DNA of 64,000 nucleotides from a virus, in IMG/VR virus record IMGVR_UViG_3300014613_000020, positions 1-64,000 of that record; one strand, written 5' to 3'. Position numbers and translations under genes: made by a program. Below the pieces are notes generated by a model, which was not told the DNA's origin, made no database searches, and was given only the letters and a program-made list of their open reading frames with translations. Numbering within the stretch: position 1 is the stretch's first letter; every line of letters begins with the position of its first letter. Shown in pieces: positions 24,924-33,826 of the stretch.

Positions 24924-25004
24924 GGGGATGAAATGGGGTCGATTCAGTTGAGAGCCCAAAGCGGCTGGCTGAAGACGGTGGTTCAATTCCACCCATCTCC
25001 ACCA
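24924..25004 (+). ncRNA. minimal tmRNA-like RNA (tRNA-like domain only)
   Basis: GGGGATG/CATCTCC acceptor with G3.U, ACCA end, stemless D-loop ending TCGA, GAC before T-arm GGTGG-TTCAATT-CCACC. Confidence 0.75.
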
Positions 25005-26153: not shown

Positions 26154-26182
26154 TTGACAAGAAGCGAGTTTTGTGGTATACT
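26154..26182 (+). promoter_or_regulatory. sigma70 promoter
   Basis: TTGACA-17-TATACT. Confidence 0.75.
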
Positions 26183-26215
26183 GTAGACAGTAGATGCGTG
26201 CTCTATAAATGGTGA

Positions 26216-26341
26216 TTCTCACGCCAATAGAACCCAACGCAAATACAAGCCCCTATTGGGTGTGAGCTCTTGGACGCTTTGCTGCGCGTTGGCAGCGATG
26301 AGAAAAAGGGTCACAAGGACTCACACCCAATGGGGTCTTTT
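26216..26341 (+). promoter_or_regulatory. structured leader RNA (long stem plus pseudoknot/alternative pairing), copy 1
   Basis: stem 26251-66/26320-35 followed by T-run; loop complementary to 26216-21 and 26234-40. Confidence 0.6.
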
Positions 26342-26390
26342 AGTCTGTAACTTTTGCACAAAAGGAGGGAATGAGAATGAAATAAGACCA

Positions 26391-26448
26391 TGTGTAGTGC
26401 TGTCAAGTGTTGTACTGTGGGGTCATGTGCGATAAATTAAGGTAAAAC
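26391..26448 (+). repeat. pentamer-phased unit 1 (DGY-NN x8-9 plus tail)
   Basis: tgtgt agtgc tgtca agtgt tgtac tgtgg ggtca tgtgc gataa attaaggtaa. Confidence 0.8.
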
Positions 26449-26472
26449 TCAATCAATGAAAGGAATGAAGAA

Positions 26473-27072
26473 ATGCCAGAAATTGCGGATGTCATAGTCA
26501 GTGGATTGATTTTCAAGAGTGTTACAATCCCAATAGTTAGCATAAGTGGATCGTCAATGATACAGAACAAAATGAGTGATAAAACAAAGGAGAGGATGCG
26601 TGGGAAGCAAACCGGGCAACCAAATTCCGGTCGACAACCAAAGGATATAGAGGCGCTCTATCTTGGTTCTTTGCACCCAAAGAATCCTGTGACAGGGAAT
26701 TATACCTTTCCTGGGTGGGGGTTCCAAAAGGCCATTACTGAGGCACCTAGATTCGACGACAACTTAAAAATGAATGCCATGCGGCAGTCAATCACTGTCG
26801 ATAGTGAGTACATTGACATTATTGGTGAACCACAAATGAGAGAAGACCTAGTGAAAATTGGAAGGGGGTCAGCCGATCTAGCCTATCGTGGTGAGTTTCT
26901 TAAGTGGTCTGCCGTTCTCCCCATCACCTACAATTCAGCAGCCATTAGTTTGGAACAGCTCGTTGGCCTTGTAAACATTGCTGGATGGTGTATTGGAGTA
27001 GGATCGTGGCGGCCTGGCAGTTCAGCGGGTGGCATGCATGGAAAATTTAGAATTGCAAGAGAGGGTGAGTAG
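26473..27072 (+). CDS. RAMP/Cas7-like protein (putative RNA-guided effector subunit)
   Basis: C-terminal Gly-rich loop GWCIGVGSWRPGSSAGGMHGKF; FPGWGFQKAI resembles the RAMP IPxxxxKG motif. Confidence 0.6.
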   Translation: MPEIADVIVSGLIFKSVTIPIVSISGSSMIQNKMSDKTKERMRGKQTGQPNSGRQPKDIEALYLGSLHPKNPVTGNYTFPGWGFQKAITEAPRFDDNLKMNAMRQSITVDSEYIDIIGEPQMREDLVKIGRGSADLAYRGEFLKWSAVLPITYNSAAISLEQLVGLVNIAGWCIGVGSWRPGSSAGGMHGKFRIAREGE

Positions 27073-27555
27073 ATGTCGCCAATCTATCGAATAAAACCAG
27101 GATGGTGCCCTGCCGACCCCAACAAAGCACAGGCTTATGGGGAACGAATAGAATATTTGGATACACTGAGTGAAGTCGGCTCTGCTTCAGTACGTGATGT
27201 CGTAAACGACGCTAAAGACCCGCAATCAATTCTACACGATGTCTTTGAATGGGATGATAGTGTGGCGGGTGAGAAGTACCGCCTGCAGCAAGCGCGACTT
27301 CTTTTGAACCATTTGGTAGTAGTAGTTAAGGACCAGGAAGTTGAGGAGGTTCGTGCCAGGTTTAGCGTTACCACTCCAAGTGGTGATAACGTCTATGCGG
27401 CCTTTCAGACTGTTCAGGACACGCCGGATTATCAACAACAGATTATCGACCAGGCCCTGAAGCAACTGAGAATCTGGCAAAAGAAGTACAGCATGTATCA
27501 GGTTCTGTCCGGTATCACATTGGCTATCGAAGAGGCACTATCTTCTTTGCCGTAG
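27073..27555 (+). CDS. phage protein coupled to RAMP-like gene
   Basis: starts immediately after previous stop; LHDVFEWDD..A.EKYRLQQAR motif. Confidence 0.65.
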   Translation: MSPIYRIKPGWCPADPNKAQAYGERIEYLDTLSEVGSASVRDVVNDAKDPQSILHDVFEWDDSVAGEKYRLQQARLLLNHLVVVVKDQEVEEVRARFSVTTPSGDNVYAAFQTVQDTPDYQQQIIDQALKQLRIWQKKYSMYQVLSGITLAIEEALSSLP

Positions 27556-27574
27556 CCGATTAAAATACAACTTA

Positions 27575-27871
27575 TGTCATGTGTGGTACTGTGCTGTAGT
27601 GCGGTGTTCGGTGATGTGTTGTTTGGTAAACTAAGGCAAGGGAACGACTCTTCTAGCAGACATCAAACTCTGTTAGAAGACTTCTTTCGGCAATGTGATG
27701 TTCGGTGTGGTGCTGTATTGTCTAGTGAGGTACAGTAAACTAAGGTAAGGGTTCGTTATCCCTAACAGACATCATACTCTGCTAGGGATACTTGTAGTAA
27801 TGATGTGGTGTCTGGTTTGGTTTAGTAATGCCTTGTTATGTCATGTGCTGTGCAGTAAACTAAGGTAAGGG
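27575..27871 (+). repeat. pentamer-phased array, units 2-4 with hairpin spacers
   Basis: 11, 10 and 11 DGY-NN pentamers, each ending ACTAAGGYAAGGG; 12-13 bp hairpins with loop CATCAWAC between units. Confidence 0.9.
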
Positions 27872-27876
27872 TAACA

Positions 27877-27936
27877 GAACTCTGCCACTCAATCAGGGAG
27901 TGTGAGACAAGCAGGTTCGAGTCCTGCCAGGGTTCA
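27877..27936 (+). ncRNA. tRNA-like element lacking anticodon arm
   Basis: GAACTCTG/CAGGGTTC 8-bp stem, CACTC/GAGTG hairpin, T-arm GCAGG-TTCGAGT-CCTGC. Confidence 0.65.
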
Positions 27937-27937
27937 T

Positions 27938-27966
27938 TTGACAAAAACATAGATTTGTGGTATAAT
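27938..27966 (+). promoter_or_regulatory. sigma70 promoter
   Basis: TTGACA-17-TATAAT. Confidence 0.8.
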
Positions 27967-27988: not shown

Positions 27989-28112
27989 CTTCTCGTGCCA
28001 AATTCAACCATAACAGCAAAGGCCCTATTAGGTATGGGTTTCTTGTTCCTTGTCGAGTTATGGCGACGCCGAGAAGAGGAGCATTAGAAATCCATACCTA
28101 ATGGGGTCTTTT
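27989..28112 (+). promoter_or_regulatory. structured leader RNA, copy 2
   Basis: same architecture as copy 1 with compensatory changes. Confidence 0.6.
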
Positions 28113-28119
28113 AGGCTAA

Positions 28120-30027: not shown

Positions 30028-30127
30028 TGCCTGGAAAGATGCTGTGGTGTGACAAGTGCAAGAAGTTCATTGTCCACATTTTTGATGGCAAGCTATGGAT
30101 ATGCCAGAGATGCGGGGGTGGAAAGAG

Positions 30128-31027
30128 ATGATACGAAGCTATCCGAAGATATACAATCTAGGTCACGCCGCCATAAAAGAGCTGTTCCTTGACGACGTGA
30201 TAGTAGAAGAGAAAATCGACGGGTCGCAAATTTCTTTCAGCCGGACCACAGAAGGTGAGTTGATGTGCCGCAGTAAGGGGAAGGACCAAAGTCCGGGCCA
30301 ACAGGACAAGATGTTTAACAAGGCCATAGAGACAATTCAGAGCATTCAGCATCTGCTAACTCCTGGGTGGACTTATCGTGGTGAGTACTTGCAAAACCCA
30401 AAGCACAACACCATCGCGTATGATAGGGTACCTGATAGACACATCATCATCTTTGACGTGGACGTGGGCATGGAAAGCTACATGTCTTATGAGATGAAGA
30501 GAGATGAGTCTCAGAGATTAGGATTGGAATGTGTTCCTGTACTGGCAGAGGGAATGTTCACAGACTATAATACATTTATGGAGTTGTTGGATACACCAAG
30601 TTGCCTTGGCGGGTCAACCATCGAAGGAGTTGTAATCAAGAACTATTCTCGGTGGGGGAGAGATAAAAAGGCGTTGATGGGAAAATATGTCTCTGAGAAG
30701 TTCAAGGAATCAAATAAATCGAATTGGACACCTAAGACCGGCAAGAGCATAATTCAAATCATCGGTGAGAGCCTACGGACAGAAGCGCGATGGAATAAGG
30801 CTATTCAGCATTTACGGGACAGTGGGGAACTTGTCAATGAACCAAAGGATATTGGCGGATTGATAAGAGAATTGCAGAGAGACGTGAAGGAAGAGTGTGA
30901 AGATGAGATAAAAGCAGCACTTTTTCAATGGGCGTGGAAGGATATATCTCGAATCGTTACATTTGGATTTCCGGAGCAATACAAACGACTACTCGCAGAG
31001 AGCCAATTTGAAAGAGAGAAATTATGA
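30128..31027 (+). CDS. RNA ligase (Rnl2-like nucleotidyltransferase)
   Basis: YPKI, EKIDGS (KxDG), FDV, EGVVIK, KY motifs. Confidence 0.8.
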   Translation: MIRSYPKIYNLGHAAIKELFLDDVIVEEKIDGSQISFSRTTEGELMCRSKGKDQSPGQQDKMFNKAIETIQSIQHLLTPGWTYRGEYLQNPKHNTIAYDRVPDRHIIIFDVDVGMESYMSYEMKRDESQRLGLECVPVLAEGMFTDYNTFMELLDTPSCLGGSTIEGVVIKNYSRWGRDKKALMGKYVSEKFKESNKSNWTPKTGKSIIQIIGESLRTEARWNKAIQHLRDSGELVNEPKDIGGLIRELQRDVKEECEDEIKAALFQWAWKDISRIVTFGFPEQYKRLLAESQFEREKL

Positions 31028-32973: not shown

Positions 32974-33456
32974 ATGGCTATTGAGCGATTTTCAAGTGCA
33001 GATTTTGAGGACGCTCTACCCAGGGACAAGGAAGGTAAAAATCTTTGGGAGCGGCGGGAGACGGTAGGACATGAATACATCTATGCTGTGCCCATTATCA
33101 ATGGCATAGTGAAATCGGGGGAGTTAGAAATCCGCATTCATTCATCTGTGAGTGAGTGGACCGGATATGCCGATAGTCTGGGGGAGAATAGTATTCGTCT
33201 ATATCTCTATTCTCCCAAATACAACAAGTCCCTGGGCAAGACAGAATCCCGTTGGGTCACCCGTGTGTCCGGATGGGACAAGCGGATGATCAAGCAGTTG
33301 AGAGAGTTGTATGTTTGGGGATTAAAAAGTTCTCGTTGTCGGAAATGTGGTGAACTGCAAGGTGCATTCACTGCCAAGACAGTCAAGAACAAAGGTCGTC
33401 AGTTTCGTACTTGTTTGAATGATGATTGTAAAGAATGGGGGGGATGGGTAAAATGA
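32974..33456 (+). CDS. hypothetical protein with C-terminal zf-GRF-like domain
   Basis: CRKCG...NKGRQFRTC....C..GW. Confidence 0.6.
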   Translation: MAIERFSSADFEDALPRDKEGKNLWERRETVGHEYIYAVPIINGIVKSGELEIRIHSSVSEWTGYADSLGENSIRLYLYSPKYNKSLGKTESRWVTRVSGWDKRMIKQLRELYVWGLKSSRCRKCGELQGAFTAKTVKNKGRQFRTCLNDDCKEWGGWVK

Positions 33457-33659
33457 GTCGTATACTGGATTTTCATTTTCAAGGGATCCATGGTATTGAC
33501 ACAGAACAGATTAAGCAATTGGTTATTGCTTTGGAAAGATCAAATGCTTGGATTGGCAAGTTTATAGCAGATAATCGGGCTCCAGAGTATTTGACGGCGA
33601 GGGCGAGGGAACAATTGGAATCGAATTTGAACCTACTATCAGATTTGAAAGGAGTGTAA
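33453..33659 (+). CDS. hypothetical protein
   Basis: ORF overlapping previous stop. Confidence 0.4.
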   Translation: MSRILDFHFQGIHGIDTEQIKQLVIALERSNAWIGKFIADNRAPEYLTARAREQLESNLNLLSDLKGV

Positions 33660-33826
33660 GTGAATGAGAGCAGAAGATAGAATGCTAGAAGCCATGATGT
33701 CTGAGAATCCATCGGGCAGGTTCAATTCCTGCCCATCCTGTTCGTGGGTGGATAGTACAGCGGCTAGTACTCCTGACTGTAACTCAGGCAACGATAGTTC
33801 GAGTCTATCTCCACCCATTGATGATA

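What the first reader, a model, noticed from the sequence alone, without database searches (positions are those of the whole stretch)
26391..27936. Candidate non-CRISPR RNA-guided system: RAMP/Cas7-like gene, partner gene and four pentamer-phased guide-like units
Seen: four non-coding units at 26391, 27575, 27689 and 27804, built from 9-11 consecutive 5-mers. In 40 of 41 pentamers the first three bases are [T/G/A]G[T/C] and the last two vary freely. Each unit ends in A(C/T)TAAGGYAA. Units 2-4 are separated by 12-13 bp hairpins with loop CATCAWAC. The units bracket a 199-aa gene with a C-terminal Gly-rich loop (GVGSWRP...GGMHGKF) and an adjacent 160-aa gene, downstream of a promoter. Known: RAMP/Cas7 proteins polymerise on RNA with a fixed nucleotide step. 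Inference: each subunit grips a constant triplet and displays the variable dinucleotide, giving a programmable non-contiguous guide. No cas genes or CRISPR array are present. I recall recently reported phage systems (VIPR) with GGY-NN repeats, which needs verifying; this TGT-dominated form with hairpin spacers would be a divergent variant.
Basis: partly seen in the sequence, partly recalled or inferred. Interest (0 to 1): 0.96.

Follow-up and report, generated by a model that had tools for sequence, protein, structure and literature searches.

The report
Phage VIPR locus with UGU-type guides

Summary
Window 26154-27936 of a complete 99-kb uncultured phage holds a VIPR locus. It has a promoter, vrRNA1, vipr (199 aa), a vap-like gene (160 aa) and vrRNA2-4.

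The four tracts are the only runs of 7 or more phased NGY-NN pentamers in the genome. G is invariant at position 2, Y at position 3, and positions 4-5 carry about 0.1 bit.

A family profile built around the 199-aa protein hits one PDB sequence, SUSP1 Vipr (E 5e-14). Its AF2 model (pLDDT 95) matches Csm3/Cas7 at Z 11. VIPR was published in 2026 in three bioRxiv papers, and this scan has already noted it in at least 248 other genomes.

Three things differ here:
- Position 1 is U 60%, G 25%, A 15%. This coincides with loss of both residues that read G1 in SUSP1 (His17 to Asn, Asp177 to Ser).
- The vrRNAs are discrete, each with its own handle and hairpin, in a 1+3 plan like SUSP1. Yet Vipr and its partner belong by sequence to a clade that uses staggered arrays.
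- A tRNA-like element closes the array.

No natural target was found. The two exact matches are at chance level. This is a new member of a known kind, of moderate interest.

The parts
26154..26182 (+). sigma-70 promoter (TTGACA-17-TATACT, extended -10), likely promoter of the locus
   Evidence: Scores 11/12. It is one of only 8 such consensus promoters in the 99-kb genome.
26247..26343 (+). Very stable leader hairpin ending GGGGUCUUUUAG (terminator, attenuator or processing element) between the promoter and vrRNA1
   Evidence: Folds at -60.9 kcal/mol, z -5.8. A second copy of the 15-nt end motif lies at 28100-28114.
26391..26448 (+). vrRNA1: 8 KGY-NN units, then GATAA and the handle ATTAAGGTAA. 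It has no hairpin and its tail runs into the vipr ribosome-binding site.
26473..27072 (+). vipr: 199-aa stand-alone RAMP (Cas7-like) with G-loop GVGSWRP
   Evidence: The family profile hits only SUSP1 Vipr 36pp in PDB, E 5.3e-14. The AF2 model has pLDDT 95.2. Foldseek and VIA match Csm3/Cas7 at prob 1.0 and Z 11.1. It matches phrog_4652 and 2,115 representative homologues.
27073..27555 (+). vap-like accessory gene (160 aa), fold unassigned
   Evidence: A homologue lies directly downstream of vipr in about 89 of about 124 fetched loci and in mycobacteriophages. It has no similarity to SUSP1 Vap1 and no Pfam or PDB match.
27575..27688 (+). vrRNA2: 11 units (27575-27629), handle ACTAAGGCAAGGG, then a 12-bp hairpin at 27649-27680
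27689..27803 (+). vrRNA3: 10 units (27689-27738), handle ACTAAGGTAAGGG, then a 13-bp hairpin at 27757-27790 with one A.C mismatch
27804..27877 (+). vrRNA4: 11 units (27804-27858) and handle ACTAAGGTAAGGG
27878..27935 (+). tRNA-like element without a D arm that closes the array. It may be an RNase P/Z processing signal or a decayed tRNA gene.
   Evidence: Rfam tRNA scores 20.5 bits, below the 29-bit threshold. ARAGORN finds it only in D-armless mode, with an 8-bp acceptor and a canonical T arm.
27938..27966 (+). Next consensus promoter (12/12), marking the downstream boundary of the locus

Best explanation
This is a phage-encoded VIPR (Viral Interference Programmable Repeat) system. The locus is transcribed from the consensus promoter at 26154 (inferred). 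It would yield four vrRNAs of about 60 to 115 nt. Each consists of 8-11 pentamers followed by an invariant handle (A-AYUAAGGYAAGGG). vrRNA2 and vrRNA3 also carry a 12-13-bp hairpin cap. One Vipr protomer binds each pentamer and the protomers form a helical filament. Arg139 and Trp179 hold the invariant G at position 2, and Arg180 holds the pyrimidine at position 3. These three residues are conserved with SUSP1 Arg138, Trp178 and Arg179. The pocket for position 1 has lost both G-reading residues (His17 to Asn32, Asp177 to Ser178). This would explain why position 1 is U > G > A here rather than G. The 8-10 variable dinucleotides of each guide are displayed for base pairing with double-stranded DNA under the published one-base-skip rule (NN-x-NN). 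They specify 16-20 bp within a 23-29-bp site. Binding would silence transcription of a competing mobile element, probably another phage, a prophage or a satellite. The conserved 160-aa partner assists in an unknown way, possibly by binding DNA. What is shown here is homology, fold, repeat anatomy and conservation of the gene pair. Expression, loading, the skip rule for this variant and the targets are inferred from the SUSP1 work.
For: A profile of the protein family hits only SUSP1 Vipr in PDB (E 5.3e-14, nearly full length), and the single sequence already hits it (E 0.0024). The AF2 model has pLDDT 95.2, and its best structural matches are all Cas7-type RAMPs. The phased repeats are unique in the genome and far beyond chance. 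The locus plan matches SUSP1: one vrRNA upstream and three downstream of a vipr-vap pair of nearly equal sizes. Relatives carry phased repeats next to vipr: 66 of 80 H/E-type loci have runs of 6 or more units, as do Gordonia and Mycobacterium phages. The partner gene is conserved next to vipr. In the covariation test, all 49 loci with an acidic residue plus Trp in the G-loop have G at position 1 in at least 74% of units. The only two non-acidic loci with arrays have 25% (this window, Ser) and 33% (L088, Ala). There is no self-targeting under the skip-1 rule, as the paper reports for other systems. The 5-nt period rules out a coding repeat.
Against: There are no expression or binding data. No natural target was found: exact skip-1 patterns gave 0 hits for guides 2, 3 and 4 in IMG/VR and 0 for guides 2 and 4 in metagenomes. 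The two exact hits (guide 4 in a bacterial dnaG, guide 1 in a phage replication-initiator gene) are at chance level and place the skip base on codon position 1, not the wobble position. Both G1-reading residues of the reference structure are absent. The partner protein is unrelated in sequence to Vap1. The tail is not the SUSP1 pseudoknot. No close relative exists (best 44% identity), so hypervariability of NN among relatives could not be tested. The residue-to-scaffold link rests on two non-acidic loci, and a divergent N/D/F clade varies (G1 0.14-0.88) despite keeping Asp. SUSP1 itself has only 74% G at position 1.
Confidence: 0.9

Rival explanations
1. This is a decaying or inactive VIPR remnant. 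The repeats have drifted from GGY to TGT, the G1-reading residues are lost, and the locus no longer forms a working ribonucleoprotein.
For: His17 and Asp177 equivalents are replaced. Position 1 is G in only 25% of units. No target was found.
Against: Both ORFs are intact. Arg139, Trp179 and Arg180 and all six invariant family columns are kept. G2 is present in 40 of 40 units and Y3 in 40 of 40. The handle is invariant in all four units. Position 1 is biased towards T (60%, with no C) rather than random. The AF2 confidence is very high. The locus follows a consensus promoter.
Confidence: 0.05
2. The pentamer tracts are not guides. They are cis-acting binding arrays, at the RNA or DNA level, for another factor, for example a UGU-binding RNA protein or iterons. 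Their adjacency to vipr would then be coincidental.
For: UGU and GU-rich tracts are bound by several RNA-binding proteins (general knowledge). Expression as separate RNAs has not been shown.
Against: The same period, the same invariant G-Y core and the same position relative to vipr are seen in dozens of homologous loci and in the experimentally proven SUSP1 system. The tracts occur nowhere else in the 99-kb genome.
Confidence: 0.03
3. The tracts encode small Cys/Val/Gly-rich peptides, for example the 54-codon ORF at 27574-27738.
For: An ATG-initiated 54-aa ORF spans unit 2 to unit 3.
Against: A 5-nt repeat cannot keep a reading frame. The ORF runs through the handle and the hairpin. Units 1 and 4 have no comparable ORF. 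Conservation falls on nucleotide positions 2-3 of a pentamer and not on codons.
Confidence: 0.01

Closest known systems
Type II VIPR of Escherichia phage SUSP1 (Vipr PDB 36pp; bioRxiv 10.64898/2026.04.26.720920, .720927 and 10.64898/2026.10.15.759431)
   Same: Both have a stand-alone RAMP of about 200 aa with the G-loop GVGxWRP. The G2 and Y3 contact residues are conserved. Both are two-gene operons with one vrRNA upstream and three downstream. The vrRNAs are about 100 nt, made of 8-14 pentamers plus an invariant structured 3' tail. Both are encoded by a roughly 90-100-kb lytic-type phage and lack cas genes and a CRISPR array.
   Different: Pairwise similarity is confined to about 55 C-terminal residues (36% identity). 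His17 and Asp177 are replaced by Asn and Ser. The scaffold is UGU-dominated instead of GGU (G1 25% against 74%). The tail is a handle plus a simple hairpin rather than a pseudoknot. The partner protein is unrelated to Vap1. A tRNA-like element ends the array.
VIPR loci with staggered vrRNA arrays in actinobacteriophages and many IMG/VR contigs (e.g. Gordonia phage UmaThurman gp39, Mycobacterium phage Quico gp57; fig. S18 legend of the discovery paper)
   Same: These are the closest Vipr sequences (30-44% identity). They share the same conserved partner gene directly downstream.
   Different: Those loci have long uninterrupted GGY-NN runs that end in GGCAG and restart one base out of phase, with no handle or hairpin. 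Their G-loop is GVG(E/D)WRP with His at position 32. Here the vrRNAs are discrete with their own tails, and the scaffold is KGY.
Cas7 backbone subunits of class 1 CRISPR effectors (Csm3, Cmr4, type VII Cas7, Cas7-11)
   Same: [quoted passage not shown] They also polymerise on a guide RNA with a fixed nucleotide step (from the cited papers).
   Different: Sequence identity is 6-13%. There is no CRISPR array, no Cas5, Cas6 or Cas10 and no adaptation genes. The step is 5 nt with 3 bases sequestered, rather than 6 nt with 1 base flipped. The guide is repeat-encoded, not spacer-encoded.

Membership tests
VIPR system | Vipr protein with a RAMP fold (RRM core, G-loop, thumb) | tested here: met
   The AF2 model has pLDDT 95.2. 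All top Foldseek hits are Cas7-type RAMPs at prob 1.0. VIA gives Z 11.1, 155 residues aligned, rmsd 4.0, to Csm3 8do6_E.
VIPR system | Sequence homology to an experimentally characterised Vipr | tested here: met
   The family profile A1 hits only 36pp 'SUSP1 Vipr protein', E 5.3e-14, profile positions 21-196 against chain 3-190. The single sequence gives E 0.0024, and pairwise BLASTP gives 6e-09.
VIPR system | vrRNA genes: at least 4 tandem 5-nt units with a conserved GGY (or related) scaffold and hypervariable NN | tested here: met
   There are four tracts of 8-11 units. G2 is 40/40, Y3 is 40/40, and NN carries about 0.1 bit. The scaffold is KGY, which falls in the 'YNNNG' alternative named in the paper's methods. 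The strict GG[C/T]NN caller of the third paper would miss most units.
VIPR system | Invariant structured 3' tail after the repeat tract | tested here: met
   The invariant handle is present in all four units. Units 2 and 3 carry hairpins with a conserved loop and compensating changes in the lower stem. The tail is not homologous to the SUSP1 pseudoknot.
VIPR system | Minimal locus of vipr plus one accessory gene, with no cas genes or CRISPR array, encoded by a virus | tested here: met
   The partner gene is conserved next to vipr. There is no array and no PADLOC hit. The record is a complete 99-kb virus with terminase, tail and DNA polymerase genes.
VIPR system | Residues that contact the GGY scaffold in SUSP1 (H17, D177 for G1; R138, W178 for G2; R179 for Y3) | tested here: inconclusive
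   R139, W179 and R180 are conserved. H17 aligns to N32 and D177 to S178. The repeat changes at position 1 only, which fits a co-adapted pocket rather than loss of function, but this is an inference.
VIPR system | vrRNAs are expressed and co-purify with Vipr | not testable with these tools
   This needs sRNA-seq and pull-down.
VIPR system | Guides match natural DNA targets under the 1-nt skip rule and do not match their own genome | tested here: inconclusive
   The own genome scores at background only. Exact-pattern scans gave 0 hits or chance-level hits, and the reversed control pattern also gave 1 hit. Searches at 80% or more NN match, as in the paper, could not be run on the collections.
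VIPR type II (SUSP1 / P. fulva clade) | Array architecture of discrete vrRNAs with tails, one upstream and three downstream | tested here: met
VIPR type II (SUSP1 / P. fulva clade) | Accessory gene vap1 | tested here: not met
   BLASTP of the 160-aa partner against SUSP1 Vap1 gives E 45. The partner instead belongs to the family found next to vipr in the actinophage and IMG/VR clade.
VIPR type II (SUSP1 / P. fulva clade) | Vipr falls in the type II clade of the Vipr phylogeny | tested here: inconclusive
   The protein is far closer to the staggered-array clade (E about 1e-27 to 1e-41) than to SUSP1 (E 0.0024). The paper's tree and type table are not held, so the type cannot be assigned.
CRISPR-Cas class 1 effector | CRISPR repeat-spacer array and further cas genes | tested here: not met
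   No array is present in 64 kb. The neighbouring ORFs have no cas or defence hits.

The most novel reading that the evidence does not exclude
The Asn32/Ser178 pocket is a natural re-coding of the Vipr scaffold reader. This Vipr would prefer U (and tolerate G or A) at repeat position 1, making a Vipr-vrRNA pair partly orthogonal to GGY systems. Such a shift could be an arms-race outcome, because satellites and rival phages are reported to hijack Vipr with solo GGY vrRNAs (bioRxiv 10.64898/2026.10.15.759431). It would also give a ready-made second scaffold code for multiplexed VIPR tools. In addition, the clade would have changed from staggered arrays to discrete, hairpin-capped vrRNAs ended by a tRNA-like processing signal, which would be a new vrRNA maturation route.
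Probability: 0.3. Interest if true: 0.65.

Novelty: new member of a known kind. Interest (0 to 1): 0.42.

Why it matters
VIPR is a very recent discovery: RNA-guided recognition of double-stranded DNA through a gapped code, proposed to be ancestral to CRISPR RAMPs. This locus adds no new principle, but it is useful in three ways.

- It is a natural test case for how the scaffold triplet is read. The two residues that contact G1 in the cryo-EM structure are both replaced, and position 1 of the repeat has changed with them. That points to a simple, testable specificity determinant and a possible orthogonal scaffold.
- It shows that array architecture (discrete tailed vrRNAs against staggered arrays) is not fixed within a Vipr/Vap clade.
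- It shows that strict GG[C/T]NN callers will miss such loci.

A practical by-product is that some 'hypothetical protein' CDSs in GenBank actinophage records are really vrRNA arrays.

Tried and rejected
- Word-indexed protein search found only the protein itself. The search for related loci with the single protein found no close relative in IMG/VR, and alignment A1 was too diverse for that tool.
The loci of the other non-acidic G-loop variants (P0003, P0016, P0039, P0146, P0023, P0037, P0006) could therefore not be fetched, and the residue-to-scaffold test rests on two loci.
- Exact skip-1 patterns for guides 2 and 4 gave 0 hits in IMG/VR and 0 in metagenomes. Guide 2 gave 0 in GTDB genomes.
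- Guide 4 gave one hit, inside dnaG of a MAG. About 1 hit is expected by chance, the skip base falls on codon position 1, and no other guide matches, so I rejected it as chance.
- Guide 3 gave 0 hits. Guide 1 gave one hit, in the lambda-O/DnaD-like replication-initiator gene of an unrelated 24-kb viral contig with the same GC content. The other guides match that contig only at background. The skip base is on codon position 1, and a composition-matched reversed pattern also gave one hit. I kept it only as a weak lead.
- No guide matches any of the roughly 130 fetched loci, other VIPR loci included. The peptides spelled by the guides were not recognisable motifs to me.
- For the partner protein, Pfam, a PDB profile search, Foldseek on PDB, VIA-wide and the protein atlas gave no assignable fold. 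There are only sub-threshold winged-helix-like rows (Z 4.1-4.7; TM 0.37-0.40) and a helical-hairpin match at Z 5.2.
- The tail pseudoknot seen in SUSP1 could not be found here by inspection or MFE folding.
- A naive lag-5 G autocorrelation test was uninformative because G-rich tracts dominate it.
- The host could not be inferred. The terminase is closest to Streptomyces and Actinoplanes phages, but a GC of 45% and consensus TTGACA/TATAAT promoters do not fit actinomycetes.
- The paper's supplements are not held, so the type could not be assigned.
Full report
**1. What is there**

The window is the first 64 kb of a 98,979-bp IMG/VR virus record that CheckV rates complete. It is a tailed phage with terminase, tail, helicase and DNA polymerase genes. 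Its GC content is 45% and its host is unknown.

Between two near-perfect extended -10 sigma-70 promoters (26154-26182 and 27938-27966) lie, all on the + strand:
- a very stable leader hairpin;
- a first pentamer tract (26391-26430);
- a 199-aa ORF (26473-27072);
- an abutting 160-aa ORF (27073-27555);
- three further pentamer tracts (27575-27629, 27689-27738, 27804-27858).

**2.

The four tracts contain 8, 11, 10 and 11 consecutive units of the form [T/G/A]G[T/C]NN.

Such runs occur 0.04 times per shuffled window. No other run of 7 or more NGYNN units exists on either strand of the whole genome.

Information content is 2.0 bits at position 2 (G in 40/40) and 1.62 at position 3 (T 37, C 3). It is 0.65 at position 1 (T 24, G 10, A 6, C 0) and about 0.1 at positions 4 and 5. 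Thirteen of the 16 dinucleotides are used.

Each tract is followed by an invariant handle, (R)GTAA-AYTAAGGYAA(GGG). After the handles of units 2 and 3 come hairpins of 12 and 13 bp (the latter with one A.C mismatch). Their loop (CAUCAWAC) and stem top (CAGA/UCUG) are conserved. The lower stems differ in sequence yet remain paired.

Unit spacing is 114-115 nt. A 5-nt period cannot encode a peptide repeat.

**3. VIPR is real and published**

The library holds three bioRxiv papers from 2026.
- The discovery paper describes a phage-encoded stand-alone RAMP (Vipr), an accessory gene (vap) and roughly 100-nt vrRNAs. The vrRNAs are made of 9-16 GGY-NN pentamers plus an invariant structured tail. The NN dinucleotides pair with double-stranded DNA while skipping one target base per unit, and this causes transcriptional silencing of competing phages and satellites. 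In SUSP1 one vrRNA lies upstream and three lie downstream of vipr-vap. Its methods mention alternative repeats 'NNNGG, YNNNG and NNNNG'.
- The structural paper gives the contacts. G1 is read by His17 and Asp177, G2 by Arg138 and Trp178, and Y3 by a pocket that includes Arg179.

**4. The 199-aa protein is a Vipr**

Pfam has nothing, but PHROGs gives phrog_4652. An exhaustive HMMER search finds 2,115 representative homologues, the nearest at 44% identity.

A profile of 73 of them hits exactly one PDB sequence, 'SUSP1 Vipr protein' 36pp, at E 5.3e-14 over nearly the full length. The single sequence already hits it at E 0.0024.

The AlphaFold model is confident (pLDDT 95.2, pTM 0.88). Its structural neighbours are exclusively Cas7-type RAMPs: Csm3, type VII Cas7, Cas7-11 and Cmr4. 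Foldseek gives probability 1.0, and VIA gives Z 11.1 over 155 residues.

**5. Homologous loci carry phased repeats and the same partner gene**

The nearest annotated relatives are in Gordonia and Mycobacterium phages (30-35% identity). UmaThurman, Ecliptus and Quico all have long GGY-NN arrays next to the gene.

Of 80 IMG/VR loci fetched with the family motif, 66 have runs of 6 or more units on the vipr strand.

A homologue of the 160-aa partner lies directly downstream of vipr in about 89 of about 124 loci and in the mycobacteriophages, so the two genes form a conserved module. The partner is unrelated in sequence to SUSP1 Vap1. Its confident model (pLDDT 90.7) has no assignable fold. There are only sub-threshold winged-helix-like rows for residues 1-120 and a C-terminal helical hairpin.

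**6. What is different here**

(a) *Scaffold.* Position 1 is U 60%, G 25%, A 15%. The alignment to SUSP1 shows Arg139, Trp179 and Arg180 conserved, but both G1 readers replaced: His17 to Asn32 and Asp177 to Ser178.

In the family, position 178 is Glu or Asp in 64 of 73 sequences, and all nine exceptions also lack His32. Across the loci in hand:
- All 49 loci with an acidic residue plus Trp have G at position 1 in at least 74% of units. The median is 0.98 for His/Glu/Trp, and Asn/Asp/Trp ranges from 0.88 to 0.98.
- The only two non-acidic loci with arrays have 25% (this window, Ser) and 33% (L088, Ala, any base).

This supports a simple determinant, but the sample is two. A divergent Asn/Asp/Phe clade varies from 0.14 to 0.88. 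SUSP1 itself has G in only 37 of 50 units, so position 1 is a soft position in general.

(b) *Architecture.* The closest relatives by Vipr and partner sequence use staggered arrays: runs ending GGCAG that restart one base out of phase, with no handle or hairpin. This locus instead has discrete vrRNAs with their own tails in the 1+3 plan of type II SUSP1. Its tail is a handle plus a simple hairpin rather than the SUSP1 pseudoknot.

(c) *Array end.* After the handle of vrRNA4 there is a 58-60-nt tRNA-like element without a D arm. It has a 7-8-bp acceptor stem and a canonical T arm. It scores below Rfam's threshold, and ARAGORN finds it only in D-armless mode. It could be an RNase P/Z processing signal or a decayed tRNA gene. 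This was not tested.

**7. Targets**

Under the skip-1 rule the own genome scores at background, 15-16 of 22 bases, the same as the other skip rules. This agrees with the absence of self-targeting reported in the paper.

Exact patterns gave the following:
- Guides 2 and 4 (20 specified bases): no hit in IMG/VR or in the metagenome collection. Guide 2 also had no hit in GTDB genomes.
- Guide 4: one hit, in a bacterial dnaG gene, where about one chance hit is expected.
- Guide 3: no hit.
- Guide 1 (18 specified bases): one hit, in the lambda-O/DnaD-like replication initiator of an unrelated 24-kb viral contig with the same GC content.

The guide-1 hit is a plausible kind of target. However, the other guides do not match that contig, the skip base falls on codon position 1 rather than the wobble position, and a composition-matched reversed pattern also gave one hit. 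The targets therefore remain unknown. The approximate-match searches used in the papers could not be run on the collections.

**8. Mechanism and confidence**

By homology and anatomy, the locus most likely works as published for VIPR. Vipr forms a filament with one protomer per pentamer. The scaffold triplet is sequestered, the NN dinucleotides are displayed for gapped pairing with double-stranded DNA, and a competitor is silenced. Membership of the family is well supported (confidence 0.9). Expression, loading, the skip rule for this variant, the role of the partner and the targets are inferred.

**9. Novelty**

The class is known from print, and this scan has already noted it in at least 248 other genomes. 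I file the locus as a new member of a known kind. Three features are worth a specialist's look: the co-variation of the G1 pocket with the repeat, the discrete-tailed array in a staggered-array clade, and the tRNA-like terminus.

Noticed in passing
window 27877-27936: A tRNA-like element without a D arm lies directly after the vrRNA4 handle. It has an 8-bp acceptor stem (GAACTCTG/CAGGGTTC) and a T arm (GCAGG-TTCGAGT-CCTGC). Rfam tRNA scores 20.5 bits (below 29). ARAGORN calls it only in mitochondrial mode, and the 'anticodon' call changes with settings. It may be a processing signal.
   Followed up: partly
window 26247-26343 and 28017-28114: Two very stable long hairpins (-61 and -63 kcal/mol; z -5.8 and -7.2) both end in AATGGGGTCTTTTAG. 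Each lies about 60 nt downstream of a consensus extended -10 promoter, and they flank the VIPR locus. They could be terminators, attenuators or small-RNA genes. If the first one terminates, VIPR expression depends on read-through.
   Followed up: partly
window 26352-26363: The palindrome TTTTGCACAAAA lies between the leader hairpin and vrRNA1. It is a possible operator or phage-specific promoter element in front of the VIPR genes.
   Followed up: no
window 24924-25004: An 81-nt match to Rfam tmRNA (51.4 bits, gathering score 47) is reduced to the tRNA-like domain.
   Followed up: no
L002:3135-3445 (Gordonia phage UmaThurman NC_031249.1, about 33354-33664): The annotated 'hypothetical protein' gp40 (33362-33685) coincides with a GGY-NN vrRNA array directly after the vipr homologue gp39. 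The CDS call is probably wrong. In Mycobacterium phage Quico the array sits in the unannotated gap before QUICO_57 (L003:1608-1824).
   Followed up: partly
L127:1248-1312, 2538-2592, 2666-2735, 2804-2863 (Escherichia phage SUSP1): In the reference system, repeat position 1 is G in only 37 of 50 units (6 of 12 in the fourth vrRNA). 'GGY' is therefore already a soft consensus at its first base.
   Followed up: yes
L123:3407-3606; also L122 and L124: These are VIPR loci with arrays of AGC/TGC-NN units (G at position 1 in only about 15%). Their Vipr has Asn32 and a GLGDFRP G-loop (Asp kept, Trp replaced by Phe). They are a counter-example showing that the acidic residue is not the only determinant of position 1.
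   Followed up: partly
L128:1038-1063 (IMGVR_UViG_3300027808_000164, 24 kb, GC 44.6%): Guide 1 matches this site exactly under the skip-1 rule (18/18 bases), on the coding strand of a lambda-O/DnaD-like replication-initiator gene with an HTH_36 domain. This is statistically at chance level, because the reversed control pattern also gave one hit, and the skip base is on codon position 1.
   Followed up: yes
window 30095-31027: A 310-aa ORF with a KIDGS ligase-type motif lies about 2 kb downstream of the VIPR locus. In SUSP1 a DNA ligase gene lies directly upstream of its VIPR locus. This may be coincidental synteny.
   Followed up: no
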